NCBI GenBank assembly: GCA_964016885.1
Contig: OZ024741.1
Location: forward strand, 236,902,001 to 236,966,000
DNA length: 64,000 nucleotides
Source: Eledone cirrhosa
Lineage: Eukaryota
Reading direction: 5' to 3'
This document shows positions 7,500-62,225 of the stretch, piece after piece. The notes under the pieces are model-generated. The model did no database searches and was not told the DNA's origin. It saw only the letters and a program-made list of their open reading frames with translations. Numbering within the stretch: position 1 is the stretch's first letter; every line of letters starts with the position of its first letter. The translations under genes and the position numbers were made by a program.

Positions 7500-9460
7500 T
7501 TTTGCAAACTACTGACTTGCAACCGGAGTAAAGTGCTAGCCAGACAGGGTGACCTGGTGGTGGAACAGCACAGTGGATAGAGCTATTAAAACCAAGAGAC
7601 AGACATGGAAAGTCTGAGTAGCAGAGACCGGTACCAGGTAGTTAAGAAAGAAGCTAGACAACAGCTATACACAGCTCAGAGAGAGGCTGAAGAAAGTAAA
7701 TTTTCCAATGTCTTGAGACATGAAGTGTTCCGTATTGCAAAGCAGTGTGTTGGTATAAATTGAGATGTTGTTGGGAAAAAATGTGTTAGTAATGAAGCTG
7801 GTTCACTTAGCACCACTGATGCCTAAAATAAAGAAGCTTGGAAATGTTACAACTTACCCAAAGGAAGGACCAGTTATTGAAGTTGATAGTTTTAGGGTCG
7901 AAGATGCAATCAAAGAAATAAAGAATGGTAAAGCTGCGTTGTGCGACTGTCGGAGATAATTGCTGCGATGCTAAAAGCATTGAGAGAGGTAGAAGTCAAA
8001 CTAGTAACCTGCATAGTCAATCAAGTGATACAAGACAGAGTCATAGCCAATGACTGGTGTAGCAGTACAAGGATAAAGGTGATGCTCTAGAAAGGAGCAA
8101 CTATAGAGGAATAAAACTAATGAATGAAGTTATGAAAATGATAGAAAGATTTATAGCACAGCTAATTAGGGAAAGAGTAAAAATAGATGAGATGCAGTTT
8201 GGTTTCATGGCTGGTAAAAATACTACAGATGCCCTCTTCTTAGTGAGGCAACTACAAAAGAAGTTCCTAGCCAAAGATAAGTTGCTATATTTAGCATTTG
8301 TTGATTTAGAAAAGGCCTTTGACAGATCTATATATTGACTAGATCTATTATTTAGTGATCCTTAAGGAAATTAGTTGTAGAAGAGTGGCTTATGAGAACA
8401 ATGCAAGCTATGTAGAAAGGAACTGTCAGTAAAGTGAGACTAAGAAGTGAGTTCAGTGAGGAATTCAAGGTACAGTTAGGAGTTCATCAAGGTTTGGTTC
8501 TTAGCTCACTGCTGTTCATCATAGTTCTCCAGAACATAACTAATTCCATAAAAGAACTAGAAAATAAGTTCCAACTATGGAAACAGAACTTGGAATCAAA
8601 AGGTCTGAGAGTAAACTTAGCCAAAACTAAAGTGTTACTGAGTAGGAAAGAAGATAGGGCCCTGATTCCTTCAGGTAAATGGCCCTGCTCAATATAGAGA
8701 AAGGGAGTAGGCATAAACTCCATATGATGTACACAATGTAAATCTTGTATACACAAGAGATGTAGTGAGATAAGGGGTAGACTGACAAGAAGGAAAGACT
8801 TTGTATGGAGAAGGTGCACAGGGGTAATCAAGGGGAAGAGTGTTTGAACCTTTTCCAGCCAGGGTCCATAGAAGTGGTTGATAGCTTCTGCTATCTAGGT
8901 AACTTAATTAGCAGTGGAGGAGGGTGCTCTGAGAGCATAATAGCTAGAATAAGAATAGGATGGAAGAAGTTTAGGGTGCTACTTCCTCTTGACTACAAAA
9001 GGTTTCTCTCTATGTACAAAAGCACGACTGCATGATACCTGTATGCGAAGTGTGATGCTGCATGATAGAGAAACATGGGCTGTGACTGGGGAGAAATGAA
9101 GCAGCCATGCTTTATTGGATGTGTAATGAAGTGTGAGAGAAAAGCAGAGCTTGGACGAGCTGAGAGAGAATCTGGGTTTAGGAGGAATCTTAGGTGGTGT
9201 GCAGGAGAGAAGACTGCGGTAGTATAGACATGACTGCTTTGTGAAGAAATGTCAGCAAATGCCAGTGGAAGGAAGCTGCAGTAGAGGTAGACCAAGAAAG
9301 ACCTGGGCAGAGGTTGTGAAAGCTGACCTAAAATCGCTAAGACTCGCAGAGGAAATGACAAAAGAACATCACTAGTAGAGAGATGGCGTGCTGAGAAGAA
9401 CCCATCCAACCCATGCAAGCCTGGAAAAACAGACATAAAAACGATGATAATGATAATGAT
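7500..9460 (+). mobile_element. Degraded 5'-truncated RTE LINE (RT, PHD-like insert, 3' end with (ATG)n tail)
   Basis: ORF fragments DEMQFGFMAGKNTTDALFLVRQLQKKFLAKDKLLYLAFVDLEKAFDR, GVHQGLVLSSLLF and FCYLGNLISSGGGCSE; 3' end aacccatgcaagcctggaaaaacagacataaaaacgatgataatgat. Confidence 0.9.
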
Positions 9461-10127: not shown

Positions 10128-10150
10128 TATTTCCTTTCATTTATTTTCAG
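10128..10150 (+). promoter_or_regulatory. Putative splice acceptor of the ZNF-A coding exon
   Basis: Pyrimidine tract ttcctttcatttattttcag|g, 143 nt upstream of the ATG. Confidence 0.6.
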
Positions 10151-10293
10151 GTTACCTTTTATCTGCAAAGCCTTTTCATGGAGCCTCACAATATAACAGC
10201 CATTGTTTAGACTAAACCAAGTAGTTTTAACAGCAGACTGACCTTACATCTCACAAACCTCTTCATCAAAAACAACGAAAACCCATTATATCA

Positions 10294-11808
10294 ATGATGG
10301 AAACCCTGCCTAGCGATGCCTCGATTCATAGCGCTATTGCGTCTAAACCTCAATTCTCACCTCTTCCCAACAGCATGGCACCTCATAGGATGCCACACAT
10401 GACAGACAAATCCTTCCATAATGAGATATACGGCAACCAATTCATGCAGGGCTATTATTTACAGACACACGGTTTGGTACATTCAAGCCAGAAGTTGTTC
10501 CATCCTGAAGTGTACGGCAAGCAATTTGCACAAAATTGTTATGTTCAAAACCATGAACGGATGCATAACATTGAGAAACAACCCCCAGCTGCACCACCCA
10601 CACCTCCAGTCTGTCCCAAACCACCAGTCACTCCAAATAAAATTGCACCAATAATTCCTAAAATTGAGGCACCGCCAGTTAAGCAGTTTCAGTGTGATTC
10701 TTGTCCCAAACAGTTTGCACGTAGAAATACATTGCAGCTGCATCAAAGACTGCACACTGGCGAGAAATTGTTCCATTGTGGTTTCTGCGATAAGCAGTTT
10801 ATTCATCGAGACAAGCTGCAAATCCATGAGAGGATACACACAGGAGAGAAACCTTTCCATTGTGAGTTTTGTCCAAAGCAGTTCTCTCGGAAGGACAAAC
10901 TGAAAATCCATCGGAGCACACATACGGGTGAGAAGCCGTTCCATTGCAATCTTTGCGATAAGCAATTTGTTCAGCGAAATAAGTTAAAAATTCATCAAAG
11001 AATCCATACAGGTGAAAAGCCGTTCCATTGTGAATTTTGTCCCAAACAGTTTTCTCGTGGTGACAAGCTGCAGTTGCATAGAAGGACACACACAGGTGAG
11101 AAGTTATTTCACTGTAACTACTGTCCGAAGCAATTTGTTCAGAAAGACAAACTGTTGATACATGAAAGGACGCATACTGGGGAGAAGCCTTTCCATTGCG
11201 AGATCTGCTCAAAGCAGTTTGCTCGTAGTGACCGTCTGCAAATCCATCGAAGAACACACACTGGGGAGAAGCCATTCCACTGCGACCTCTGTCCTAAGCA
11301 GTTTGTTCAACGATGTTATCTAAAAATTCACCGTCGTATACACACGGGTGAGAAACCTTTCCAGTGTGATGTTTGTTCCAAGCAGTTTGCTCGGAAAGAC
11401 AAACTCCAGATACATACTCGCACTCATACAGGGGAGAAACCTTTCCACTGCGACATCTGTAGGGAGCAGTTTGTGAGGAAAGCACAGCTGCTTGCACATA
11501 AGAAACACATGCATGCTGCTGTTGTTGATAAACCATTTCAGTGTGAGATTTGCTTGCAACAGTTCGCAGAGCGAGATGCAATGTTGATTCACCAGCGATC
11601 ACATTTGCAGGCCACATCGCCACCGCAGTGTGACATATGTACAAAGCAGTTTGCCACCATGGAGGAAATGCAAAATCACAAAAGAATACATAAACCTGTC
11701 CGGAACAATTTCTTGAAGCCAACTTCATGCAAGAATATCAAGGAGTACACACCAATGAGTACTCTGTTATGGCAGACTCTCTACCCAGGATTACAAAATC
11801 CTGTATAA
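10294..11808 (+). CDS. C2H2 zinc-finger protein ZNF-A (504 aa, 12 fingers, single coding exon)
   Basis: Intact ORF with 12 CxxC-x12-HxxxH units, TGEKPF/TGEKLF linkers and a Pro-rich pre-array segment; no KRAB/SCAN/BTB/ZAD domain recognisable. Confidence 0.95.
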   Translation: MMETLPSDASIHSAIASKPQFSPLPNSMAPHRMPHMTDKSFHNEIYGNQFMQGYYLQTHGLVHSSQKLFHPEVYGKQFAQNCYVQNHERMHNIEKQPPAAPPTPPVCPKPPVTPNKIAPIIPKIEAPPVKQFQCDSCPKQFARRNTLQLHQRLHTGEKLFHCGFCDKQFIHRDKLQIHERIHTGEKPFHCEFCPKQFSRKDKLKIHRSTHTGEKPFHCNLCDKQFVQRNKLKIHQRIHTGEKPFHCEFCPKQFSRGDKLQLHRRTHTGEKLFHCNYCPKQFVQKDKLLIHERTHTGEKPFHCEICSKQFARSDRLQIHRRTHTGEKPFHCDLCPKQFVQRCYLKIHRRIHTGEKPFQCDVCSKQFARKDKLQIHTRTHTGEKPFHCDICREQFVRKAQLLAHKKHMHAAVVDKPFQCEICLQQFAERDAMLIHQRSHLQATSPPQCDICTKQFATMEEMQNHKRIHKPVRNNFLKPTSCKNIKEYTPMSTLLWQTLYPGLQNPV

Positions 11809-19880: not shown

Positions 19881-21175
19881 CATCATCATTTTCATCATCA
19901 TCATTTTACATCCGCTTTTCCCTGCTTGCAAGGGTGGGACGGGTCTTATTCAGCACAGCATCTCTCCACTCGTCACGGTCCTTCGTCATCTCTACCGTGA
20001 GCTTCAATGATCTGAGGTCTGTTCTCATGACCTCTGCCCATGTTTTTCGTGGTCTATCTCTACCACGTCTTCATTCAACTGGTATTTCCTGGCACTTCTT
20101 CACCCATCGGTCATCCTCCATGCGCATCACATGTCCATACCACCTCAGTCTCCTCTCCCGTACACTACATTCTATCCCGCTCAGACACAGTTTCTTTCTC
20201 AACACATTCATGCTGGGTCGTTCACGCACATTGACATTGCACATCCAACGAAACATGCTTACCTCATTTCTCTCCAACCGTCGCATATCCTCTGCAGTTG
20301 CTGCCCGTGTCCCACTACCATGCAGCATCGCGCTCCTCACACAGGCATCATACAACCGGCCTTTCTTACGCAGGGAGAAACCCTTCTTCGTCAACAGAGG
20401 AAGCAGCTCCCTAAACTTCTTCCAACCCGTCCTTATTCTAGATACTATGGCCTCGGAACACCCTCTTCCCATGCTAATCTGATCTCCTAGGTACCGGAAG
20501 CTGTCCACCACTTCTATAGCGCCCTCCTGCATTTGAAAAATGTGTCTATCAATGCGACTTCTACTGTCTAATTTCCCTGTACATCTACTGCATACATATT
20601 TCTCCCTACCTGTTAGTTTGCCTGCTATCCTGATACATCTCTTGTGTACCCAGGATCTGCATTGTGTGCATTTTATAGAATTTATGCCAGTTCCTTTTCT
20701 GCATATCGAACATGGCCATTTCCCTGACGGAATCAGGGTTTTGTCCTCTTTTCTACTCATCAACACTTTTGTCTTAGCCAGGTTCACTCTCAGTTCTCTT
20801 GCTTCCAACTGCTGTTTCCATAGCCAGAATTTATTTTCTAGCTCCTCTACTGATTCTGCTATAAGAACCATATCGTCAGCATAGAGAACTTCCCATGGAC
20901 AGCCAGTCTTAAACTCCTCTATTATGGCTTGGAGGACTATAATGAACAAGAGTGGGCTGAGGACCGAGCCCTGATGTACTCCTACTTGTATCTGGAATTC
21001 CTCACTAAACTCCATTCCTATCCTGACTTTACTGAGAGTACCTCTGTACAAAGTTTGCACTGTCCTCACAAGCCATTCCTCAACACCTAGCTTCCTTAGG
21101 GACCACCAGATGACAGATCGGGGTACCCTATCAAAGGCCTTCTCTAGGTCAACAAAGGCTAAATATAGTGGCTTA
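19880..21175 (-). mobile_element. 5'-truncated RTE LINE, near-intact RT C-terminal ORF (20071-21069) with (GAT)n tail
   Basis: VGVHQGSVLSPLLF, LYADDMVL, FRYLGD and RRLRWYGHVMRM; 3' end cccgtcccacccttgcaagcagggaaaagcggatgtaaaatgatgatg. Confidence 0.95.
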
Positions 21176-21529
21176 TTTATATATATATTTATTAAAATAA
21201 CAGATTAAAGTTTAAGCAAAAAATCGCTGCTTTCTTTGGATTTTAATCTTTACATTTATTATTATTACTATATATATATACATAGGAAAATGTTCAAGAC
21301 CCCGACGGCAGAACTCAAGCCGTTTCAACGGCTATTTCTGGACATTTTCCTATTACCCACTCTACAACCCTAAGTACTGAGTACTCTGGTGCATTATGGT
21401 CAATCTGGTTCCTTACCACACTTTCTTCGTTATATATATATATATATAAAATAAAAAGTAAGCAAACCAATCAAAAAGGAAAAATTGGTGATTAGTTACG
21501 CATATTACAATATAGATTGCGTATATATA

Positions 21530-35353: not shown

Positions 35354-38300
35354 TTACTGGCTTTTTGGTGAAGAATTGCCACTTTGATGAATACTTTCTT
35401 CTTCTTCTTGTTTATTGTTTTTGTTCCAGTCATAATTCATCGTATTGGGAACGTTGGTCCAGCCAGAACTCAACATAGGGGGCAGAGGAAACTCTCTCAG
35501 CCAAATATAGTTGTTCTCCCAACTGGGGGGCATTTCATGTAAGAATGTTGTGGGAGCAGGTGAGGGGACAATTATTGGGGTCAACGAGTCTTTGCTGGAG
35601 TCGGATTTGATAGAAGCTGAAGAGTTTGAGTCTGTTCGACACGGCCCTTTTGGCAGTTCTGTGATGGGTTCTTGAATAGAATTAGTGTTTGATTTGTTAT
35701 TGATGCTGCTGTTGCTGTTGCTGTTGTGGTTGTTACTGCTGTTGTACATATTGCTATTATTACTGTTGTTGTTGCTGTTAGTGGTAGATGGGGTGGAAGT
35801 TGTGGTGCTGTTGTTGGTGCTGATGGTATTGTTGTTTGTTCGAATATTTGGTGGTGGTGGGGACTTAACTGAAAGCTGGTGTTTTGGAAAGTCTGAATGG
35901 TTATTCTGAAAGCAGTTGTGTTTCGTAAAGTTGTTGCGGTCCGTAAAATATTTGTTACAACCATCACAGTAAAACACCTGCTTCTTACCTATCTCTGTGT
36001 GTGTTTTCGTATGGGCTTTCAGAGCAGAACTGTGAGAGAATACTTCTCCACATAACTCACAATGATATGGGATGTCTCCAGTATGCAGTCGTTCATGGTT
36101 ACGGTGAAAGAAGCGGTTTGAGAACTCCTTGCCACAGAAGCGGCACAGGAGTAATTCTCCTGTGTGCATACGCATGTGATCATTTAGACAGTTCTTCTGA
36201 GAATATGACTTCCCACATATATCACAATGAAATGGTTTCTCACCAGTGTGTTTGCGTAGATGTGTCTTTAGGTTACCTCGCTGAGCAAATGCTTTATCAC
36301 AAAATGTACACTGGAATGGTTTCTCTCCTGTGTGTGTGCGCTCATGATTGCGAAGGAAAAACTGGTTAGCAAAAGATCTCTTGCAATAGCTACAATAAAA
36401 TAAGTCTCCTGTGTGTATCCTTTTGTGGTCATTTAGGCAATTTTTCTGGGCAAATGCCTTCCCGCAAATGTCACATATGTAATCCTTTTCCCCAGTATGT
36501 GTTTTCATGTGCATTTTTAAGTTACCTTGTAACGTAAATCGTTTTTGGCAGAATTCACATTCGTAAGACTTTTGGCCTGAGTGACTTAGTTCATGGCTTT
36601 TGAGGAAAAAGCGATTGGAAAATCCTTTGTTGCAAACAGGGCAGTAGAATAGCTGTCCAGTGTGGATTCTTTTATGATCGTTCAGGGTATTTTTCTGTGT
36701 AAATGCTTTATCACAGATGTCACATTGAAAGGGTTTCTCCCCAGTGTGTATTCTTAAATGTGTTTTGAGGTTTGTCCGGTGAGTGAAGGACTTGTCACAA
36801 ATTTCACAGGTAAATGGTTTCTCACCAGAGTGAATCATTTCATGATTTTTTAAGAAGAACCTGTTGTTAAATGTTTTATCGCACACTCCGCACGTATAGA
36901 CTTCATCCGAATTCTTATGGACTTGCTGATGACTTTTGAGAAAAAATTCATTAGAAAACTCTTTTTGACAAATGGAGCAGTAATACATGTTGCCTGTATG
37001 TATTCTTTTGTGGTCATTAAGGCAGTTTCTCTGAGCAAATCCTTTTCCACAAACATTACATATAAATGGTTTTTCTCCAGTGTGTATTCTCAAATGGATT
37101 TTTAAATTGCCTCTCTGGGAAAACTGCTTATCGCAAATATCACATTTGAATGGTTTCTCACCTGAATGGATTCTTGAATGGTTTTTCAGAAAGAATTTAT
37201 TTGAAAAGTTCTTGCCACAAATGCTGCAGTTAAAAGTCTCACCAGTATGTATCTGTTCATGACTTTTTAGAAAAAATTGGTTTGAGAAGCTTTTGCTGCA
37301 CAATTCACACTTGAACGTTTCACCTGTGTGTAGGTTTTTATGATCATTCAGACAGTTTCTTTGTGCAAATGCCTTACCACAAATGTCACAGACAAATGGC
37401 TTCTCCCCTGTGTGAATTCTAAGATGCGTCTTTAAATTCCCATTTTGTGAGAATTTCTTGTCGCAGAATTCACAAGCATATGGCTTTTCCCCACTATGAA
37501 TTCTGGAATGATTTTTCAAAAAGAACTTGTTGGAAAATGTCTTTCCACAGATTGTACATTTGAAAATCTCTCCTGACTTGTGGGTTTGTTCATGGCTTTT
37601 CAAGAAGAATTGGTTTGAAAATTCTCTTTTACAAATACCACACACGTAGGTGTCTCCTGTGTGAAGCCGTCTGTGGTCATTTAGACAATTCAACTGCGCA
37701 AAAGATTTGTCACACAGATCACATTGAAATGGTTTCTCACCTGTGTGAGTCCTGAGGTGAGTTTTAAGATTTGTACGCTGACCGAAAGCTTTGCCGCAAA
37801 AATCACATTTAAATGGCTTTTCTCCTGTATGGCTACGTTCATGATTTTGGAGAAAGAAGCGGTTTGCAAACGGTTTTTTGCAATAGCTGCAAAAAAACAA
37901 ATCTCCTGTATGTAGGCGCTTATGATCTTTGAGACTGCTCTTCTGAGCAAAGGATTTCCCGCATTCATCACAGCTAAACGGTTTCTCACCAGAATGTGTG
38001 CGAAGGTGAAGTTTTAGGTTAGTTAGATGACTAAATGTCTTTGAGCAAATACTACATCGGAACGGTTTGTCAACAGTAGATCCAGAAGAATTGATGTTCC
38101 CAGCATTGTAGTGTGGGGGCATATGAAGTGGTTTCACAGGTGACGGTGCTTGGAAACAAGAATCACTCTTGCCACCTCCAATCTGAGTACCTGTAATATT
38201 ATTGTTATTATGGTTGTGGCCATTGTTGTTGGTGTTGTTATTATGATTATTGTTATTAGTATTATTATTAATATTATTGTTGTTGTTGTTGTTATTATTA

Positions 38301-39121
38301 TTATTATTAATATGACTGTTGTTATTGATAGTATTATTGTGGCTATTGTTGTTGAGATGGAGATGATTGCTGTTGTTGCCAATGTTGTTGGGAGGGGTGT
38401 GGTTGGGAGGGGTGTGGTTGGGAGGGGTGTGGTTAGGAGGGGTGTGGTTGGGAGGGGTGTGGTTGGGAGGTGTGTGGTTGGGATGTGGGTGAGGGGGAGG
38501 AGGGGGAGGATGAGGTGGAGGGGGAGGAGGAGGGGAAGCTTCTTCTAAATGAATACGAGTGTGAATCTTCAAGAAGAACTCACAAGAAAATACCTTCCCA
38601 CAATATTTGCATGGGAAGTCACCCTTTTGTGTTTTTGCAGAAGTGTCTATGCGGTTATTAGAGACTGGCTCTGGAGAAGAAAAGCTTTTACCTGGTATAT
38701 TAAGGACTCGATAGTTTTTTGGTTCTCCCTCATTGTGTATTCGTGGAGATTCAGAGGAGGAGGCAGCTCCTGCCCCTTGGTAAACACTTTTCCTAGAGAC
38801 ATCAGGAATACGCAAATTCCTGTCTGTATTGACATTGTCAGAACTGGCAAACCTGATTGTATTGGTGTTATTTTTATAGCTAGGGCTGGGCGACGGACTT
38901 GCAGATGGCATAGTGACCCGGTTTGGAGTTATATTTTGGATATTGTTAGAGATACTGAGTCCTTGGTATTGGTCTTTCCAAAGAAGATTCGGGAAATACC
39001 CTGTGTCATTTACAGGTGTTCGTTCAGGTATTTTCAGCTGGTTTATCTGGTAAATAGGCTGCCCATATATAGTACACTGGGTATTTTCAAGGGTGGGGAA
39101 GGTTGGCTGACCTGGATACAT
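35354..39121 (-). CDS. C2H2 zinc-finger protein ZNF-B (1255 aa; 1 isolated + 25 arrayed C2H2 fingers + terminal C2HC-like finger; Pro/His/Asn low-complexity regions)
   Basis: Intact ORF; ACCATG context with an in-frame stop 16 codons upstream; fingers counted from the translation. Confidence 0.95.
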   Translation of the reverse strand: MYPGQPTFPTLENTQCTIYGQPIYQINQLKIPERTPVNDTGYFPNLLWKDQYQGLSISNNIQNITPNRVTMPSASPSPSPSYKNNTNTIRFASSDNVNTDRNLRIPDVSRKSVYQGAGAASSSESPRIHNEGEPKNYRVLNIPGKSFSSPEPVSNNRIDTSAKTQKGDFPCKYCGKVFSCEFFLKIHTRIHLEEASPPPPPPPHPPPPPPHPHPNHTPPNHTPPNHTPPNHTPPNHTPPNHTPPNNIGNNSNHLHLNNNSHNNTINNNSHINNNNNNNNNNNNINNNTNNNNHNNNTNNNGHNHNNNNITGTQIGGGKSDSCFQAPSPVKPLHMPPHYNAGNINSSGSTVDKPFRCSICSKTFSHLTNLKLHLRTHSGEKPFSCDECGKSFAQKSSLKDHKRLHTGDLFFCSYCKKPFANRFFLQNHERSHTGEKPFKCDFCGKAFGQRTNLKTHLRTHTGEKPFQCDLCDKSFAQLNCLNDHRRLHTGDTYVCGICKREFSNQFFLKSHEQTHKSGEIFKCTICGKTFSNKFFLKNHSRIHSGEKPYACEFCDKKFSQNGNLKTHLRIHTGEKPFVCDICGKAFAQRNCLNDHKNLHTGETFKCELCSKSFSNQFFLKSHEQIHTGETFNCSICGKNFSNKFFLKNHSRIHSGEKPFKCDICDKQFSQRGNLKIHLRIHTGEKPFICNVCGKGFAQRNCLNDHKRIHTGNMYYCSICQKEFSNEFFLKSHQQVHKNSDEVYTCGVCDKTFNNRFFLKNHEMIHSGEKPFTCEICDKSFTHRTNLKTHLRIHTGEKPFQCDICDKAFTQKNTLNDHKRIHTGQLFYCPVCNKGFSNRFFLKSHELSHSGQKSYECEFCQKRFTLQGNLKMHMKTHTGEKDYICDICGKAFAQKNCLNDHKRIHTGDLFYCSYCKRSFANQFFLRNHERTHTGEKPFQCTFCDKAFAQRGNLKTHLRKHTGEKPFHCDICGKSYSQKNCLNDHMRMHTGELLLCRFCGKEFSNRFFHRNHERLHTGDIPYHCELCGEVFSHSSALKAHTKTHTEIGKKQVFYCDGCNKYFTDRNNFTKHNCFQNNHSDFPKHQLSVKSPPPPNIRTNNNTISTNNSTTTSTPSTTNSNNNSNNSNMYNSSNNHNSNSNSSINNKSNTNSIQEPITELPKGPCRTDSNSSASIKSDSSKDSLTPIIVPSPAPTTFLHEMPPSWENNYIWLREFPLPPMLSSGWTNVPNTMNYDWNKNNKQEEEESIHQSGNSSPKSQ
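38390..38482 (-). repeat. Coding 15-bp minisatellite encoding (NHTPP)x6, next to poly-Pro and poly-Asn tracts
   Basis: ggaggggtgtggttg repeated on the + strand. Confidence 0.9.
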
Positions 39122-40149
39122 GGTTATTGTTGGGTGGATTGCAAAGAGAGACCTGGACTGAATATATCAATACAACTGCACTGTTGCTGGTGTCGTTTAT
39201 CACATGCTGCAGTTGTGTTTACTAGTTGTTCTAACTGCAAAATAACTTGCTTTTGTTAGTTCTTCTAAGTTTATTACAGTCATTATAGAGAAATATTATA
39301 ATTGTCGTTGTAAGTGGCTTACTTGAATTTTACATATTTTTCTGTTGTGTTTGTAACTCTTATACAACCTGTTAATGGCTGTATGACTCGTTCACTGTTA
39401 CACAACTTGTTAATTGTTGTATGATTTCTTTACTCTTATATGACTTGTTACCTGCAGTGGTTGTTGTGTGATGTCTTTAATTTTTGTACAGCTAGTTACC
39501 TGTTAGTTAACTGATGTGGTTAGTGTCGAGTGTATTGTGAAATATTGACTTCGTCACTGTTCACACCAAGTCCTCTCTCTCCTTTCTAACCTACAGTTAA
39601 CTTCACAACCAGCTATAAAATATATCTTGTAGGGACTTTTTCTTTTGTTTAAATTCTATTTGTTATACTTCGTTTCTTTCCTCTGGCTTTAACATCCAAA
39701 TATGTTGAAGTAATATTTTAGTTGATACTGCTATTGTTTGTGTTGATACTGCTGTTATGTTGATATCACCACTGTTTATGTTGATATTGATGTTGTTTAT
39801 GCTTGATATCACCACTGTTATATTAATAGTGCTATTGTTTAGTTTGATGCTGCTGATATTTATGTTGATTGTATCACTTGTTATAACTGTGTCACAGCCT
39901 ATGTTGATTTTTGTCCCTATTTGTGTTAATATTGTCACAACTATATGAACTCAGCCTCTGTTATGTTGACTGTGCCACTGTTATGCTGAGTCTGTCGTTC
40001 TGTGTTCCCAATATTTAAACCAGTATACTTCACCCAGTGTTATGCCGTCTTGCTATGGTTACTGTTTAGATGACCAATTTTTTTTTTCAGTTAGCGTACA
40101 ATGACTAAAGTATTTTGATCAATGCTCTATTGATGAATATCTTCAGACA

Positions 40150-42134: not shown

Positions 42135-45100
42135 CAGTTATGGTGATAATGACAGTGTACAGTGTAGTTGGTGGTGATGGTGGTGATAATGACAGTGTAC
42201 AGTGTAGTTGGTGGTGATGGTGGTGATAATGACCAGTGTACAGTGGTGGTTGTGATGGTGGTGATAATGACAGTGTACAGTGGTGGTTGTGATGGTGGTG
42301 ATAATGACCAGTGTACAGTGTAGTTGGTGGTGATGGTGGTGATAATGACCAGTGTACAGTGGTGGTTGTGATGGTGGTGATAATGACAGTGTACAGTGTA
42401 GTTGGTGGTGATGGTGGTGATAATGACCAGTGTACAGTGGTGGTGGTGATGGTGGTGATAATGACCAGTGTACAGTGGTGGTTGTGATGGTGGTGATAAT
42501 GACAGTGTACAGTGTAGTTGGTGGTGATGGTGGTGATAATGACCAGTGTACAGTGGTGGTGGTGATGGTGGTGATAATGACCAGTGTACAGTGGTGGTTG
42601 TGATGGTGGTGATAATGACCAGTGTACAGTGGTGGTTGTGATGGTGGTGATAATGACCAGTATACAGTGGTGGTTGTGATGGTGGTGATAATGACCAGTG
42701 TACAGTGGTGGTTGTGATGGTGGTGATAATGACCAGTATACAGTGGTGGTTGTGATGGTGGTGATAATGACCAGTGTACAGTGGTGGTTGTGATGGTGGT
42801 GATAATGACCAGTGTACAGTGGTGGTTGTGATGGTGGTGAGAATGGCCAGTGTACAGTGGTGGTTGTGATGGTGGTGAGAATGGCCAGTGTACAGTGGTG
42901 GTTGTGATGGTGGTGATAATGACAGTGTACAGTGGTGGTTGTGATGGTGGTGATAATGACCAGTGTACAGTGGTGGTTGTGATGGTGGTGAGAATGGCCA
43001 GTGTACAGTGGTGGTTGTGATGGTGGTGATAATGACCAGTGTACAGTGGTGGTTGTGATGGTGGTGATAATGACCAGTGTACAGTGGTGGTTGTGATGGT
43101 GGTGATAATGACCAGTGTACAGTGGTGGTTGTGATGGTGGTGAGAATGGCCAGTGTACAGTGGTGGTTGTGATGGTGGTGATAATGACAGTGTACAGTGG
43201 TGGTTGTGATGGTGGTGATAATGACCAGTGTACAGTGGTGGTTGTGATGGTGGTGATAATGACCAGTGTACAGTGGTGGTTGTGATGGTGGTGAGAATGG
43301 CCAGTGTACAGTGGTGGTTGTGATGGTGGTGATAATGACCAGTGTACAGTGGTGGTTGTGATGGTGGTGATAATGACCAGTGTACAGTGGTGGTTGTGAT
43401 GGTGGTGATAATGACAGTGTACAGTGTAGTTGGTGGTGATGGTGGTGATAATGACCAGTATACAGTGGTGGTTGTGATGGTGGTGATAATGACCAGTGTA
43501 CAGTGGTGGTTGTGATGGTGGTGATAATGACAGTGTACAGTGTAGTTGGTGGTGATGGTGGTGATAATGACCAGTGTACAGTGGTGGTTGTGATGGTGGT
43601 GATAATGACAGTGTACAGTGTAGTTGGTGGTGATGGTGGTGATAATGACCAGTATACAGTGGTGGTTGTGATGGTGGTGATAATGACCAGTATACAGTGG
43701 TGGTTGTGATGGTGGTGATAATGACCAGTGTACAGTGGTGGTTGTGATGGTGGTGATAATGACCAGTGTACAGTGGTGGTTGTGATGGTGGTGAGAATGG
43801 CCAGTGTACAGTGGTGGTTGTGATGGTGGTGATAATGGCCAGTGTACAGTGGTGGTTGTGATGGTGGTGATAATGACCAGTGTACAGTGGTGGTTGTGAT
43901 GGTGGTGAGAATGGCCAGTGTACAGTGGTGGTTGTGATGGTGGTGAGAATGGCCAGTGTACAGTGGTGGTTGTGATGGTGGTGAGAATGGCCAGTGTACA
44001 GTGGTGGTTGTGATGGTGGTGATAATGACCAGTGTACAGTGGTGGTTGTGATGGTGGTGATAATGACCAGTGTACAGTGGTGGTGGTGATGGTGGTGATA
44101 ATGACCAGTATACAGTGGTGGTTGTGATGGTGGTGATAATGACCAGTATACAGTGGTGGTTGTGATGGTGGTGATAATGACCAGTGTACAGTGGTGGTTG
44201 TGATGGTGGTGATAATGACCAGTGTACAGTGGTGGTTGTGATGGTGGTGATAATGACCAGTGTACAGTGGTGGTTGTGATGGTGGTGATAATGACCAGTG
44301 TACAGTGGTGGTTGTGATGGTGGTGATAATGACCAGTGTACAGTGGTGGTTGTGATGGTGGTGATAATGACCAGTATACAGTGGTGGTTGTGATGGTGGT
44401 GATAATGACCAGTATACAGTGGTGGTTGTGATGGTGGTGATAATGACCAGTGTACAGTGGTGGTTGTGATGGTGGTGATAATGACCAGTATACAGTGGTG
44501 GTTGTGATGGTGGTGATAATGACCAGTGTACAGTGGTGGTTGTGATGGTGGTGATAATGACCAGTGTACAGTGGTGGTTGTGATGGTGGTGATAATGACC
44601 AGTGTACAGTGGTGGTTGTGATGGTGGTGATAATGACCAGTGTACAGTGGTGGTTGTGATGGTGGTGATAATGACCAGTATACAGTGGTGGTTGTGATGG
44701 TGGTGATAATGACCAGTGTACAGTGGTGGTTGTGATGGTGGTGATAATGACCAGTATACAGTGGTGGTTGTGATGGTGGTGATAATGACCAGTGTACAGT
44801 GGTGGTGGTGATGGTGGTGATAATGACCAGTGTACAGTGGTGGTTGTGATGGTGGTGATAATGACCAGTGTACAGTGGTGGTTGTGATGGTGGTGAGAAT
44901 GGCCAGTGTACAGTGGTGGTTGTGATGGTGGTGATAATGACCAGTGTACAGTGGTGGTTGTGATGGTGGTGATAATGACCAGTGTACAGTGGTGGTTGTG
45001 ATGGTGGTGATAATGACCAGTGTACAGTGGTGGTTGTGATGGTGGTGATAATGACCAGTGTACAGTGGTGGTTGTGATGGTGGTGATAATGACCAGTGTA

Positions 45101-48100
45101 CAGTGGTGGTTGTGATGGTGGTGATAATGACCAGTGTACAGTGGTGGTTGTGATGGTGGTGAGAATGGCCAGTGTACAGTGGTGGTTGTGATGGTGGTGA
45201 TAATGACCAGTGTACAGTGGTGGTTGTGATGGTGGTGATAATGACCAGTGTACAGTGGTGGTTGTGATGGTGGTGATAATGACCAGTGTACAGTGGTGGT
45301 TGTGATGGTGGTGATAATGACCAGTATACAGTGGTGGTTGTGATGGTGGTGATAATGACCAGTGTACAGTGGTGGTTGTGATGGTGGTGATAATGACCAG
45401 TGTACAGTGGTGGTTGTGATGGTGGTGATAATGACCAGTGTACAGTGGTGGTTGTGATGGTGGTGATAATGACCAGTATACAGTGGTGGTTGTGATGGTG
45501 GTGATAATGACCAGTGTACAGTGGTGGTTGTGATGGTGGTGATAATGACCAGTATACAGTGGTGGTTGTGATGGTGGTGATAATGACCAGTGTACAGTGG
45601 TGGTTGTGATGGTGGTGATAATGACCAGTGTACAGTGGTGGTTGTGATGGTGGTGAGAATGACCAGTATACAGTGGTGGTTGTGATGGTGGTGATAATGA
45701 CCAGTGTACAGTGGTGGTTGTGATGGTGGTGATAATGACCAGTGTACAGTGGTGGTTGTGATGGTGGTGAGAATGGCCAGTGTACAGTGGTGGTTGTGAT
45801 GGTGGTGATAATGACCAGTGTACAGTGGTGGTTGTGATGGTGGTGATAATGACCAGTATACAGTGGTGGTTGTGATGGTGGTGATAATGACCAGTATACA
45901 GTGGTGGTTGTGATGGTGGTGATAATGACCAGTGTACAGTGGTGGTTGTGATGGTGGTGATAATGACCAGTATACAGTGGTGGTTGTGATGGTGGTGATA
46001 ATGACCAGTGTACAGTGGTGGTTGTGATGGTGGTGATAATGACCAGTATACAGTGGTGGTTGTGATGGTGGTGATAATGACCAGTGTACAGTGGTGGTTG
46101 TGATGGTGGTGATAATGACCAGTGTACAGTGGTGGTTGTGATGGTGGTGATAATGACCAGTATACAGTGGTGGTTGTGATGGTGGTGATAATGACCAGTG
46201 TACAGTGGTGGTTGTGATGGTGGTGATAATGACCAGTGTACAGTGGTGGTTGTGATGATGGTGAGAATGACCAGTGTACAGTGGTGGTTGTGATGGTGGT
46301 GATAATGACCAGTATACAGTGGTGGTTGTGATGGTGGTGATAATGACCAGTATACAGTGGTGGTTGTGATGGTGGTGATAATGACCAGTGTACAGTGGTG
46401 GTTGTGATGGTGGTGATAATGACCAGTGTACAGTGGTGGTTGTGATGATGGTGAGAATGACCAGTGTACAGTGGTGGTTGTGATGGTGGTGATAATGACC
46501 AGTATACAGTGGTGGTTGTGATGGTGGTGATAATGACCAGTATACAGTGGTGGTTGTGATGGTGGTGATAATGACCAGTGTACAGTGGTGGTTGTGATGG
46601 TGGTGATAATGACCAGTGTACAGTGGTGGTTGTGATGGTGGTGAGAATGGCCAGTGTACAGTGGTGGTTGTGATGGTGGTGATAATGACCAGTGTACAGT
46701 GGTGGTTGTGATGGTGGTGATAATGACCAGTGTACAGTGGTGGTTGTGATGGTGGTGATAATGACCAGTGTACAGTGGTGGTTGTGATGGTGGTGATAAT
46801 GACCAGTATACAGTGGTGGTTGTGATGGTGGTGATAATGACCAGTATACAGTGGTGGTTGTGATGGTGGTGATAATGACCAGTGTACAGTGGTGGTTGTG
46901 ATGGTGGTGATAATGACCAGTGTACAGTGGTGGTTGTGATGGTGGTGATAATGACCAGTATACAGTGGTGGTTGTGATGGTGGTGATAATGACCAGTATA
47001 CAGTGGTGGTTGTGATGGTGGTGATAATGACCAGTGTACAGTGGTGGTTGTGATGGTGGTGATAATGACCAGTGTACAGTGGTGGTTGTGATGGTGGTGA
47101 GAATGGCCAGTGTACAGTGGTGGTTGTGATGGTGGTGATAATGACCAGTGTACAGTGGTGGTTGTGATGGTGGTGATAATGACCAGTGTACAGTGGTGGT
47201 TGTGATGGTGGTGATAATGACCAGTGTACAGTGGTGGTTGTGATGGTGGTGATAATGACCAGTATACAGTGGTGGTTGTGATGGTGGTGATAATGACCAG
47301 TATACAGTGGTGGTTGTGATGGTGGTGATAATGACCAGTGTACAGTGGTGGTTGTGATGGTGGTGATAATGACCAGTGTACAGTGGTGGTTGTGATGGTG
47401 GTGAGAATGGCCAGTGTACAGTGGTGGTTGTGATGGTGGTGATAATGACCAGTGTACAGTGGTGGTTGTGATGGTGGTGATAATGACCAGTGTACAGTGG
47501 TGGTTGTGATGATGGTGAGAATGGCCAGTGTACAGTGGTGGTTGTGATGGTGGTGATAATGACCAGTGTACAGTGGTGGTTGTGATGGTGGTGATAATGA
47601 CCAGTGTACAGTGGTGGTTGTGATGGTGGTGAGAATGACCAGTGTACAGTGGTGGTTGTGATGGTGGTGATAATGGCCAGTGTACAGTGGTGGTTGTGGT
47701 AATGACAAGTGTACAGTGGTGGTTGTGGTGGTATGGCAAGTGTATAGTGGAGGTTGTGGTGGTGGTATGGCAAGTGTATAGTGGAGGTTGTGGTGGTGGT
47801 ATGGCAAGTGTATAGTGGAGGTTGTGGTGGTGGTATGGCAAGTGTATAGTGGAGGTTGTGGTGGTGGTATGGCAAGTGTACAGTGGTGGTTGTGGTGGTG
47901 GTATGGCAAGTGTATAGTGGTGGTGGTGGTATGGCAAGTGTACAGTGGTGGTTGTGGTGGTGGTATGGCAAGTGTACAGTGGTGGTGGTGGTATGGTAAG
48001 CATGTGGTGGTGGTGACACGTGTACAGTGGTAGTAGTGGTAAGTGCATAGTGGTGACAAGCGTACAGTGGTGGTGGTGGTGACAGGTCTACAGTGGTAGT

Positions 48101-54991: not shown

Positions 54992-57705
54992 CTAGCTGGC
55001 CCGTCCGGCTGGTGCCCGGCTACCATTGGCATGTTCTACGGCATCCAGATATATAGCTGACGTACCTAGCTTCGCTTGGATAAACAGACGATAAGCCGTC
55101 TGTGAAGTATAGTATTGCTGTTGAATACATATAGTATAGTATTACTGTTGAAAATATATAGTATAGTATTACTGTTGAAAATATATAGTATAGTATAACT
55201 GTTGAAAACATAGTATAGTATTACTGTTGAAAATGTATAGTATAGTATTACCGTTGAAAATATATAGTATAGTATAGTATTACTGTTGAAAACATATAGT
55301 ATAGTATAGTATTACTGTTGAAAATATATAGTATAGTATAGTATTACCATTGAAAATATATAGTATGAGTGTTGAAAACGTATAGTATAGTATTACTGTT
55401 GAAAATATATAGTATTACTGTTGAAAATGTATAGCATAGTATTACTGTTGAAAATATATAGTATAATATTATTGTTGAAAACATAGTATAGTATTACTGT
55501 TGAAAATATATGGTACAGTATTACTGTTGAAAATATATAGTACAGTATTACTGTTGAAAACAGTATAGTATTACTGTTGAAAATATATAGTACAGTATTA
55601 CTGTTGAAAATATATAGTACAGTATTACTGTTGAAAATATATAGTATAGTATAACTGTTGAAAATATATAGTATAGTATCACTGATGAAAATATATAGTA
55701 TAGTATTACTGTTGAAAATATATAGTATAGTATCACTGATGAAAATATATAGTACAGTATTACTGTTGAAAATATATAGTATAGTATAGTATTACTGTTG
55801 AAAATATATAGTATAGTATCACTGTTGAAAATATATAGTACTAGCTGGCCCATCTGGCTGGTGCTCGGCTAGGTATCCCAACATTTTATCTTTTCAGGAA
55901 TCCCCCCTACACTCCAGTGCAAAGATACAGCACGCCCTCTCAAGTCAGTGAGGGGGGGGGGGGGGGTTAACGTGCTCTGATGTTGGGTTTTAATAGTTTT
56001 TAGGATTCCCCATTTAAGCAGCCAGTAATTTAAAGAAAATTGATAGTTACAACAATAAAGGCTGAACAGAGAACAAATTTTTTAACAAACAATAATTTGT
56101 ACAACCATAATGGAAATTCCAAGTAACAGAAAATATTTAAATTACATTGTTAGAGCCTCAGAGTATACAATATTTTTGTTCGGCCCTCCGGAGCAAAGAT
56201 CAAGAGATTGTTTGGCAAGCTCACCCTAGAGCATCCTACATACAACTGACCATGGGAGAATCACTGATTTCGTAGCTCGTCTTGTGGCGAAGCTCTGTAG
56301 ATGTTGACCTCTGGACACTCCTATCAGGAGCAGGTAAGCTGTAGTGACTTAGAGGTCTACCACCAATCTCCAGGACACTGTTTTCAAGACAAATGAAAAC
56401 GACATCGTATGTTACGTTTGGATTGTGTCTGCGTGTGCGGTGGAGGATGTCCTCAGCTAGACTTTCGCGGTGGTTGTTCCACAGTGCAAGAGGGTCGGCG
56501 AAATCGCAGTTGTGCAACATAATAGCAAAAAGTTTTCGCAACTGAAAAGGGACTTTAGAAGTTACTGCTTCTTGCAGGGTGAGGTGCCAATGGCTGCCAT
56601 CGTGTAACATACCAAGCATCTGGCAAGCCAAACGGTAAGTGAAACATTGATGGCCATTGATGGTTGTCATATCTTGGAAAGACTGTGGTCCTCTAACCTC
56701 GAACAATAACAATGATAATAAGCCATCTGTGCTTTCATGAAATAAATAGGTTTTTGTTTTTAAGTATGCAAAAATATTTGTACACGAATATATATATTAA
56801 AATAACAGATTAAAGTTTAAGCAAAGAATCGCTGCTTTCACCCTTAACGGGATCTTCTGAAACTAAAAAAATCCATCTGTGAACGCAGAAGTAAATATTT
56901 CGAAAAACGTTATCTAATGCAGACAGACATACATACAGAGACATATTATAAGGGTGCTACGTTATAGTTATGCAGACTAAAAAAAAGAGGGGAATGTTGT
57001 GCGACGCCATAAGAAAAAGTGAGGAATGACGTATAACCGGAAGTGTTGACATTTGAAATTTTAAAGAAGTGAATATTTAAATAATTGTTTCTATTTTTGG
57101 CACAAGGCCAGCAATTACCCAGTGCATTACTGGTACTTTATTTTATCAACCCCGTAAGGATGAAAGGCAAAGTTAACCTCGGCAGGATTTGAACTCAGAA
57201 TGGCAAGGGCCGTAACTCTATACGTCAAAGCATGGCGTCCGACCCTCTACCTATACTGCCAATCCATCGTCTTTAATCTTTTAACAAAATTCAGTAGACA
57301 AAAATACCCTCACTTTTTTACTTGGAAAAAGTTACATCTATGGTGGAAATTTGGTGCTGTTTGGTCCAGCCGTTTGGCGGAAAGTATGTTACCTACACAC
57401 AGCCGTCAGCTTTATAGTATAGATAGTATTAATGTTGAAAATATATAGTACAGTATTACTGTTGAAAATATATAGTACAGTACAGTATTACTGTTGAAAA
57501 TATATCGTACAGTACAGTATCACTGTTGAAAATATATAGTATAGTATTACTGTTGAAAATATGTACACGAATATATAATTAATTAAAAGTTGGTTAGAAG
57601 CAAAGTCAATGAAGACAGGCAGACATACAGACAGATATTACAAGGGCACGACGTTATAGCTATGTAACTATCTAAAAAGACAGAATAAGAAAGAGAGAGG
57701 AATGT
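54992..57705 (-). mobile_element. Outer non-autonomous Helitron carrying a ~23-30-bp satellite
   Basis: Minus-strand 3' end gccgggcaccagccggacgggccagCTAG|T; satellite tagtatagtattactgttgaaaatata at 55105-55840 and 57424-57562; 57563-57700 resembles the inner copy at 56780-56990. Confidence 0.7.
55841..57423 (-). mobile_element. Inner Helitron, internally deleted, with Rep-Hel fragments and a SINE insertion (57085-57270)
   Basis: 5' A|TCTATACTATAAAG at 57423 and 3' CTAG|T at 55841; ORF 56236-56712 (VRGPQSFQD...ACQMLGMLHD...QLRKLFAIML) and the helicase tail VGCSRV...TKNIVYSEAL. Confidence 0.85.
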
Positions 57706-60094: not shown

Positions 60095-62225
60095 TAAATG
60101 AGGAGAATAAATGGGAAAAAGATAGTCTCCCCAAATCAATCCAATAGAGGGACCAGCAGTGCAAGTTGAAGGTAATATAATAAGTAAGGCAATCAAAGAT
60201 ATGAAGACAAGCAAGGCAGCTGGGCCTTTGGAGATAGTTGCTGAGATGTTGAAAGCATCTGGAATGGTAGGACACACTATGGTCACCCGGATAGTGAACC
60301 AAGTAATACAGAATGGGACCATACCAAATGACTGGCGTAGCAGCATCATTAACTGCTACAAGGGTAAAGGAGATGCCCTAGATAGGGGAAACTATAGAGG
60401 CATTAAATTGATTGACCAGGTCATGAAGGTCACAGAAAGAGTTATAGCGCAACTAATCAGAGAGCGAATTGATCTAGATGAAATGCAGTTTGAGTTTGTG
60501 TCAGGTAAAAGTACCACAGACGCTCTTTTCCTTGTACGACAACTACGAGAGAAGTACCTAGCTAAAAGTAAACCCCTATACTTAGCTTTTGTTGACTTGG
60601 AGAAAGCCTTTGACAGTCCCCTGCTCCATTATCTGGTGGGCTCTTAGAAAACTAGGTGTTGATGAATGGCTTGTGAGAGCTATACAAGCCATGTATAAAG
60701 AAACAGTCAGTAAGGTTAGAATTAACAATGAATATAGTGAAGAATTTAGTGTAAAAGTTGGTGTTCATCAAGACTCTGTTCTTAGCCCCCTCCTATTTAT
60801 TATTGCCCTTCATGCTATAACAGAGGAGTTCAAGACCAGCTACCCATGGGAACTTCTATACACAGATGATCTAACTCTCATAGCTGAATCAATGGTTGAA
60901 CTAGAGAAGAAATTCCAAACATGGAAGCATGGCCTAGAATCAAAAGGCCTTAAAGTTAACTTGTCTAAGACTAAAGTTCTAGTTTGTAGAAAGGAAAATA
61001 GGGTACAGGTACCCTCTGGCAAAAGGCCATGCTCAGTGTGTAGGAAAGGAGTAGGCAGAAATTCCATATTATGTCCCAAATGCAAACTATGGGTACATAA
61101 AAGATGTAGTGGGATCACAGGTAAGCTATCTAAGAACGTGGATTTTATATGTGGCCGATGCTCAAGTGCAATAAGTAGCAAGTGCCCACAGGATACTAGC
61201 TCCTTCTATTGCCCAGATGGTTCTATAGAAATAGTGGACACCTTCCGTTACCTGGGTGACAAAATCAGCAGTGGTGGAGGGTGCTCTGAAAGTACAGTAG
61301 TCAGAGTCAGAACGGGATGGAAAAAGTTCAGAGAGCTTATACCACTATTGACCACTAAAGGTTTCTCTCTAAAAATGAAAGGCAGATTGTATGATGCCTG
61401 CATACGAACAGTAATGTTACATGGCAGTGAGACATAGGTTTGTGTGCAGAGGATCTGCGCAGACTGGAGAGGAACGAAGCATTCATACTCCGTTGGATGT
61501 GTAATAGTAATATACGCAAACGGCAAAGCATAAATGAACTAAGTGAGAAATTAGGAATAAGAGGGATCAGATGCGGTTTACTCGAAAGAAGACTACGTTG
61601 GTATGGTCACGTGATGCGCATGAAAGACGACAGTTGTATAAAAAAGTGTAGGGCGATCAAAATTGATGCAAGTTATGGAGTAGGTAGACCCAGAAAAACC
61701 TGGAAGATTTGATAAATTCCGACCTCACACACTTACACTTCTCTAAGACAATGTCACTGGACCGAGAGCTTTGGTGCTACGCAGTAATACAGAAGACCCG
61801 CCTTGCCTATGTACAAAGCGAAACCTACAGTCAGTAGGCACCTCCTAACCAAATATATACCCCATCCCACTACTCCTACTCCACCCTACCCCCACTCCCA
61901 CCAACACCACCCTTTCTCTGTAAAGTTATGTTGGTACCACAACATCCAGTCCAAAATAAATGAGGTCGTGTAGGTGTCACAACAAAAAAACACAGTCTAC
62001 GCCGTAATGTGGCCGTGTAGGTAACACGGTAAAAACCTTCCGGTTCCACACTGTAAACGTGGTTGGTGTTAGGAAGGGCATCCAGACGTAGAAAACCTGC
62101 CAGACAGCCCTATACGTGCGAGACATGGTCACCCGACCAACCTTGCCTCAAGTAGGACAAATTCCCGTCTAAACCCATGCTAGCGTGGAAGATAGATGTT
62201 AAACGCTGATGATGATGATGATGAA
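60095..62225 (+). mobile_element. RTE LINE, 5'-truncated, few disablements, with 3' UTR and (GAT)n tail
   Basis: ORFs 60159-60647, 60589-61437 and 61440-61712 give RT motifs (YKGKGDALDRGNYRGIKL, FVDLEKAFD, LYTDDL, RRLRWYGHVMR); tail aaacgctgatgatgatg. Confidence 0.95.

What the first reader, a model, noticed from the sequence alone, without database searches (positions are those of the whole stretch)
10687..11428. ZNF-A has a period-2 recognition code that may read the neighbouring TGG/TGA satellite
Seen: helix positions -1/2/3/6 of fingers 1-9 are RNTL, HDKI, RDKI, QNKI, RDKL, QDKI, RDRI, QCYI, RDKI, so Arg alternates with Gln/His at -1 on a near-constant D-K-I background. Established C2H2 code: R-1 reads G, Q-1 reads A, K3 reads G or T, and D2 favours a following G/T. 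Inference: the target is a 6-bp-periodic repeat such as (TGG TGA)n. The 38-bp satellite 30 kb away is built from those triplets (tgatggtggtgataatga), and local RTE/SINE tails are (TGA)n. This suggests a linked ZNF-repeat reader/target system without KRAB.
Basis: inference. Interest (0 to 1): 0.7.

Follow-up and report, generated by a model that had tools for sequence, protein, structure and literature searches.

The report
Old alternating zinc-finger family, satellite unrelated
This octopus zinc-finger gene does alternate two kinds of DNA-reading finger, a pattern shared with a family of sister genes that carry the same conserved tail, and it likely reads G-rich repeated sites scattered through the genome rather than the young satellite that happens to lie next to it.

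Summary
Observation right, link to the satellite not supported. The nine fingerprints are exactly as listed. ZBTB7A's R-D-K-V finger reads GG, so a (KGG KGA)n-type site (K = G/T) is a fair prediction. The satellite is not that sequence: (TGGTGA)2 is absent from the window, and on my rule-based matrix the real finger order fits the unit no better than shuffled orders (p 0.92-0.96 for nine fingers, 0.3-0.8 for sub-arrays). It beats letter shuffles only as a six-finger sub-array (p 0.002-0.01). The satellite is single-locus and homogeneous and absent beside 6 of 6 paralogues. The code is old and frozen: it is shared by a paralogue family, and one paralogue keeps 44/44 contact residues in Argonauta. 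The alternation extends to non-contact positions, as a duplicated two-finger module would give. New: the family shares a C-terminal motif (CKNIKEYTPMSTLLW) with no Pfam match. Best-fitting repeats occur genome-wide: (TGGTGA)n, or (TTAGGG)n if K3 can read T. No binding was tested.

The parts
10149..10150 (+). Likely splice acceptor (polypyrimidine tract + AG) of the single coding exon
   Evidence: Sequence. An in-frame stop precedes 10231, so an exon joined at this acceptor could not add an N-terminal domain.
10294..11808 (+). ZNF-A coding sequence, 504 aa from the first ATG, 12 C2H2 fingers
   Evidence: AlphaFold model gives 12 finger helices, pLDDT 70-90 over the array
10414..10566 (+). Two finger-like repeats without the Cys pair, 28 aa apart (likely decayed fingers)
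   Evidence: Read by eye from the translation; no Pfam match; pLDDT under 50
10687..11442 (+). F1-F9, canonical TGEKP/L-linked array; Arg alternates with Gln/His at -1 on a D-K-I background
11449..11691 (+). F10-F12 (RAQA, EDAI, TEEN); F11 and F12 follow non-canonical linkers and have acidic contact residues, likely not DNA-reading
   Evidence: role inferred
11704..11772 (+). Conserved family tail NNFLKPTSCKNIKEYTPMSTLLW
   Evidence: 10 places in the genome at E<=0.1, 8 at E<0.001, this gene included; alignments; also in Argonauta and Octopus proteins; no Pfam match
42141..47902 (+). 38-bp minisatellite, single locus, homogeneous; not the predicted period-6 target
62207..62224 (+). (TGA)6 run downstream of an RT frame, likely a LINE tail; poor fit to the finger code

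Best explanation
ZNF-A is a conserved member of a clustered family of octopod zinc-finger genes whose Arg/Gln alternation likely arose by old duplication of a two-finger unit, and it is predicted to bind G-rich sites of the form (G/T)GG-(G/T)GA repeated at 6-bp steps, likely scattered through the genome and not specifically the neighbouring satellite. Shown: the alternation, the paralogue family, the frozen contact residues, the shared tail, the lack of a Pfam effector domain. Inferred: Arg fingers read GG as ZBTB7A ZF2 does; Gln fingers read GA; Asp+2 asks for G/T at the next base; Ile/Leu+6 reads nothing; the protein acts in trans as a transcription or chromatin factor; the tail is the docking site for a cofactor in place of KRAB.
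For: Fingerprints. ZBTB7A ZF2 Arg421/Asp423/Lys424/Val427 reads two G plus a cross-strand C (PMC8553545). Among F2-F9, identity at non-contact positions is 0.76 within parity against 0.69 between (p 0.029, the best of the 70 splits and its mirror), while silent-site identity shows no parity signal (0.48 vs 0.51), as expected if the duplication is old. In 10 family genes, transitions are R to Q/H 34, Q/H to R 33, R to R 13, Q/H to Q/H 2 (one of the 2 is an artefact of a skipped finger); with contact positions ignored, 62 of 69 fingers have a nearest neighbour of the same class in another gene. Paralogue L049 keeps 44/44 contact residues in Argonauta and in O. bimaculoides. A 91%-identical contig from another organism shows 27 silent and 2 replacement changes among the 29 of 35 differences listed for F3-F7. 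A 27-mer of (TGGTGA)n has 2,261 overlapping matches in the genome, the first 100 listed spread along C1.
Against: No binding data. The matrix is my own, with weights I chose. In one published test only 11 of 236 measured KRAB-ZNF motifs matched their predictions. Gln at -1 favoured T in KLF4 K409Q, and four hexamer repeats tie at the top, so the site is loosely defined. F8 (QCY) has no clear reading. L049 and L051 break the alternation, and L053 is nearly all Arg. The one contact change seen in an orthologue is F5 Lys+3 to Arg. No function of the tail was shown.
Confidence: 0.55

Rival explanations
1. The family reads the telomeric hexamer: Arg fingers on GGG, Gln fingers on TTA, at chromosome ends and interstitial arrays.
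For: TTA/GGG is the one register of this repeat whose triplets end alternately in A and G, and both triplets start with G/T. If Lys+3 may read T, it scores 19.0 against a best of 20.1 (rank 6 of 366) and the real finger order beats shuffled orders (p 0.003). It is by far the more abundant candidate: 87,188 overlapping 27-mer matches, including interstitial arrays on C1. A frozen code fits an unchanging target.
Against: With Lys+3 reading G only, it drops to 15.5 of 27.3 (rank 24). The solved Lys+3 contacts in ZBTB7A are to G. Q/H fingers have Lys at +3 in 26 of 37 cases, as Arg fingers do, so the same residue would have to read G and T in turn. No finger has the RxxHxxR motif of ZNF524, ZBTB48 and ZBTB10.
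Confidence: 0.12
2. One reading: ZNF-A and the neighbouring 38-bp satellite, or (TGA)n LINE tails, form a linked reader/target pair.
For: Each unit has nine in-frame TG(G/A)-rich triplets. It holds a perfect predicted site for F2-F4, and a fair one for F2-F7 (13.6 of 16.2 if Lys reads G/T; only 4 equal or better sites per 200 kb of control DNA; best of several sub-arrays). Six-finger sub-arrays beat letter shuffles (p 0.002-0.01). About 150 copies could give avidity.
Against: No (TGGTGA)2 or (KKGKKA)3 in the window. Finger-order shuffles fit as well or better (p 0.92-0.96 for nine fingers in four model variants; 0.32-0.79 for sub-arrays), as do triplet-order shuffles (p 0.31-0.86). 10 of 20 and 16 of 20 control 10-kb pieces hold a better nine-finger site than any in the array. 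All 79 and 86 exact matches of two satellite words lie in this one array. None of 6 paralogues has it within 30 kb either side (1 shared 18-mer in 360 kb). (TGA)n scores 8.0 of 27.3.
Confidence: 0.06
3. The period-2 pattern is a relic of duplication; only two to four fingers contact DNA at ordinary non-periodic GG-rich regulatory sites, or the array binds RNA or protein.
For: Long arrays often use only some fingers (PMC12264921). Periodic fingerprints are common in this genome (10 of 35). Several family members break the alternation.
Against: Contact residues are unchanged over whole arrays between Argonauta and Octopus (44/44 for L049; all 15 fingerprints of L057 identical in P0173 and P0190), which is hard to explain if most fingers were idle.
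Confidence: 0.27

Closest known systems
Cephalopod C2H2 expansions (PMC12513265; sections 8 and 16 read)
   Same: Clustered tandem C2H2 genes in an octopod genome; binding sites unknown
   Different: The sections I read define clusters by tree only and leave binding sites as an open question; which cluster this family belongs to was not tested
ZBTB7A ZF2 (PMC8553545; passages)
   Same: Arg-1, Asp+2, Lys+3, hydrophobic +6: the same contact set as F3, F5 and F9
   Different: One such finger in a four-finger BTB protein; here repeated in alternation with Gln/His fingers, and no BTB domain
Telomeric zinc-finger proteins ZNF524, ZBTB48, ZBTB10 (PMC10716145; passages)
   Same: C2H2 arrays that read a 6-bp repeat; the rival reading would work like this
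   Different: They share an RxxHxxR finger that ZNF-A lacks
KRAB-ZNFs and cyprinid FiNZ-ZNFs (PMC10547256; passages and section 6)
   Same: Lineage-specific clustered ZNF family with a short conserved accessory sequence
   Different: Their accessory domain is N-terminal on its own exon and contact residues evolve fast; here the motif is C-terminal in the finger exon and contact residues are frozen

Membership tests
Tandem Krueppel-type C2H2 zinc-finger proteins | CX2CX12HX3H repeats with TGEKP linkers | tested here: met
Tandem Krueppel-type C2H2 zinc-finger proteins | Sequence-specific DNA binding | not testable with these tools
   Prediction only
KRAB-ZNF / transposon-silencing ZNFs | N-terminal KRAB (or SCAN, BTB, ZAD) domain | tested here: not met
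   No such Pfam hit in the ORF; in-frame stop inside the exon before the ATG; upstream exon itself not identified
KRAB-ZNF / transposon-silencing ZNFs | Fast change at base-contact residues | tested here: not met
   44/44 contact residues kept in L049 orthologues; 1 conservative contact change in F3-F7 of a ZNF-A orthologue
Telomere-binding C2H2 proteins (ZNF524, ZBTB48, ZBTB10) | RxxHxxR recognition helix | tested here: not met
   None of 12 fingers; motif
Telomere-binding C2H2 proteins (ZNF524, ZBTB48, ZBTB10) | Direct binding to duplex TTAGGG | not testable with these tools
   Matrix fit depends on what Lys+3 reads
FiNZ-ZNF | N-terminal acidic 28-aa domain on its own exon | tested here: not met
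   The shared motif is C-terminal and in the finger exon; no FiNZ profile was searched
Linked ZNF-satellite pair | Target carries the code's period and co-occurs with the gene family | tested here: not met
   orthologous loci in other species could not be read
Cephalopod C2H2 expansion clusters (PMC12513265) | Placement in one of the 19 published clusters | not tested
   The paper's tree data were not available here

The most novel reading that the evidence does not exclude
An octopod-specific, KRAB-less zinc-finger family with a frozen two-finger code reads 6-bp simple repeats genome-wide, the telomeric TTAGGG or (TGGTGA)n, and recruits a cofactor through an undescribed C-terminal motif (E[YF][TP]P[MV]SxxLW), the first defined accessory module of the cephalopod C2H2 expansion.
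Probability: 0.2. Interest if true: 0.7.

Novelty: new variant of a known kind. Interest (0 to 1): 0.33.

Why it matters
Cephalopods have over a thousand C2H2 genes, and their targets are an open question (PMC12513265, sections 8 and 16). This family offers an unusually simple, testable prediction (a 6-bp periodic G-rich site) and a conserved tail that could be the missing non-KRAB accessory motif. Its frozen contact residues argue that at least this part of the expansion is not in an arms race with young repeats. The specific claim of a gene reading the satellite next door would not add to this, and it fails the tests run here.

Tried and rejected
Satellite as period-6 target: rejected. (TGA)n tails: rejected. 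(GA)n: poor fit in all four model variants; (GT)n comes close only if both Lys and Gln read T (17.5 against a best of 18.7 among the ten repeats compared). Word search with the tail alone found no candidates. Two whole-array searches were swamped by unrelated long ZNF arrays; only octopod or unnamed records carried the D-K code (10 of 238 proteins with 4 or more fingers had it in at least a quarter of fingers), so no squid or cuttlefish member was named and the age beyond octopods stays open. The tail profile against 1.84 billion representatives gave 6 hits: 3 family members and 3 short unrelated proteins that I set aside by eye. Homodimer of F11-F12-tail: no answer, score 0.00, alignment not used; no evidence either way. 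No RNA holder on record was listed; the runs laid are guesses or of unknown kind. The PDB search showed ZBTB7A among hits but printed no alignment for it; its residues come from the paper. The B1H survey PMC4330361 gave no usable passage on Lys+3, and its supplements were listed but not read; they may bear on what Lys+3 reads. The ESM Atlas gave no result for the tail.

Full report
The observation. The window lies at G000:C2:236,902,001-236,966,000 in a 3.0-Gb genome whose closest named proteins come from Argonauta and Octopus. An ORF at 10231-11808 (+) encodes 12 C2H2 fingers. Strict alternation of Arg has chance 1/126, post hoc. The whole fingerprint over 12 fingers is not significantly periodic (p 0.146), and 10 of 35 arrays from this genome are periodic at some lag (these arrays were fetched by likeness to ZNF-A, not at random). 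The satellite (42141-47902, 38 bp, 152 copies) and a (TGA)6 run behind an RT frame are real.

Where the period comes from. The DNA repeats better at 168 than at 84 bp. Non-contact residues co-alternate (0.76 within parity, 0.69 between; p 0.029) while silent sites carry no parity signal. Across 10 family genes, Q/H fingers are almost never adjacent, position -2 is Ala/Ser in Arg fingers and mostly Val/Ile in Q/H fingers, and 62 of 69 fingers find a same-class nearest neighbour in another gene with contact positions ignored. This is what an old duplicated two-finger unit would leave. That it is still selected is inferred from conservation.

The family. A search with the last 42 residues finds 10 places in the genome, 8 of them within C2:234.0-237.6 Mb, this gene included. 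L045, L046, L047, L048 and L050 start with RNT/RSA-HDK-RDK and alternate much as ZNF-A does; L049, L051 and L053 are less regular. All end in a tail of the type NNFLKPTSCKNIKEYTPMSTLLW; six more cluster genes carry a shorter E/H-F/L-P-P/A-M/V-S/T-x-Y-L-W/C form and L059 has none. L049 has orthologues in Argonauta hians and O. bimaculoides with 44 of 44 contact residues identical; L057 shares all 15 fingerprints with Argonauta and O. vulgaris proteins. Unnamed records P0122, P0131 and P0132 show a strict R/Q alternation over nine fingers plus the tail. For ZNF-A itself, contigs of three other coded organisms cover parts of the ORF. One is 91% identical over F3-F7, against 79% for the best paralogue; of its 35 differences 29 were listed, 27 silent and 2 replacements, one of them F5 Lys+3 to Arg by an A-to-G change. 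In the N-terminal part, the 34 listed changes touch 26 codons silently and replace 5 residues (these come from the 40 rows shown, 312 were not shown). That Argonauta and Octopus split tens of millions of years ago is recalled, not from a call.

What the code predicts. ZBTB7A ZF2 has Arg421, Asp423, Lys424 and Val427 at -1, +2, +3 and +6; Arg and Lys each read a guanine, the finger reads only two bases, and Asp contacts the cytosine of the next pair. Gln to adenine is the general rule, though Gln favoured T in KLF4 K409Q. I built a rule-based matrix with my own weights, in four variants. (TGGTGA)n ties with (GGGTGA)n, (TGGGGA)n and (GGGGGA)n at the top of 366 repeat classes; (TTAGGG)n ranks 24th if Lys reads G only and 6th if it reads G or T; (TGA)n ranks 106th or 235th. 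For true period-6 targets the real finger order beats shuffled orders (p 0.003-0.014), so the test can detect a period match. Such predictions are unreliable in general: 11 of 236 matched measured motifs in one test.

The satellite fails. Its in-frame triplets are TGG TGG TTG TGA TGG TGG TGA TAA TGA. With nine fingers the unit scores 9.7 of 27.3 or 8.3 of 23.5, no better than letter shuffles (p 0.11, 0.35) and worse than most shuffled finger orders (p 0.92-0.96). In its favour: F2-F4 find a perfect predicted site once per unit, F2-F7 reach 13.6 of 16.2 in one variant, and six-finger sub-arrays beat letter shuffles. That signal comes from in-frame TG(G/A) triplets meeting the constant Asp-Lys background; shuffling finger order or triplet order does not lower it (p 0.31-0.86), and the F2-F4 site occurs 33 times per 200 kb of control DNA. 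All exact matches of two satellite words lie in this one array (79 and 86); 76 of 143 split units are identical, so it is likely young. It is absent from 60 kb around each of 6 paralogues, and 10 of 20 or 16 of 20 control pieces (places I picked by round coordinates) hold a better nine-finger site. A diffusible protein has no need to sit beside its target (general knowledge).

Candidate targets elsewhere. A 27-mer of (TGGTGA)n has 2,261 overlapping matches and one of (GGGTTA)n 87,188, with interstitial arrays among the first 100 listed. Neither occurred as three or more units in the 560 kb I sampled. Abundance shows availability, not binding.

The tail. It has no Pfam match, is predicted as a short low-confidence helix, and among 1.84 billion representatives finds only three family members plus three short unrelated proteins. 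It fits none of six recalled motif patterns; TPxxS/T fits 6 of 15. Its role as a cofactor dock is inference from conservation and position. I found no description of this motif or of targets for this family in the listings of searches; the library lacks most subscription papers.

Papers seen: PMC8553545, PMC10716145, PMC9391581 (passages); PMC12264921 (parts 1-2 of 6); PMC12513265 (abstract, sections 8 and 16); PMC10547256 (passages, section 6); PMC4330361 (one passage, supplement list only). Others only as search listings.

Verdict. A correct observation with a reasonable code reading, but the link to the neighbouring satellite is not supported. What remains is an old, conserved, KRAB-less octopod ZNF family with a simple predicted site and an undescribed tail. 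Interest 0.33.

Noticed in passing
window 35354-39166 (-): Second ZNF gene, 26 fingers, with a period-3/4 code (NFFN/NFFS, QGNT/QTNT, QNCD) and mostly 27-residue spacing after the QNCD fingers; Phe-Phe at +2/+3 is unusual.
   Followed up: no
G000:C2:234.0-237.7 Mb (L045-L051, L054-L059): Cluster of related ZNF genes, 12 of the 13 fetched here with a form of the C-terminal motif; a second subfamily mixes Q-x-Y-I and R-D-T-I fingers.
   Followed up: partly
window 11066: An orthologue contig reads G for A, giving Lys to Arg at F5 +3, the only contact change seen; could be a species difference or A-to-I editing.
   Followed up: no
window 55106-55840 and L065:7057-7576: A 27-bp AT-rich minisatellite recurs near the paralogue at C2:234.02 Mb.
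   Followed up: no
window 8487-8894, 20071-21204, 60586-61437: LINE reverse-transcriptase fragments with a Cys-rich PHD-like insert; earlier scan notes describe the same in RTE elements.
   Followed up: no
L049:2220-5045: This paralogue's frame is 942 aa against 653-678 in relatives and overlaps a 63-bp tandem repeat (14 copies, 93%) in L094.
   Followed up: no
G000:C1:208.56-208.59 Mb: A long interstitial array of degenerate telomere-type repeats.
   Followed up: no
window 59154-59949 and 56236-56796: Frames that look like a hAT transposase C-terminus and a Helitron-like fragment, judged by eye from the translation.
   Followed up: no
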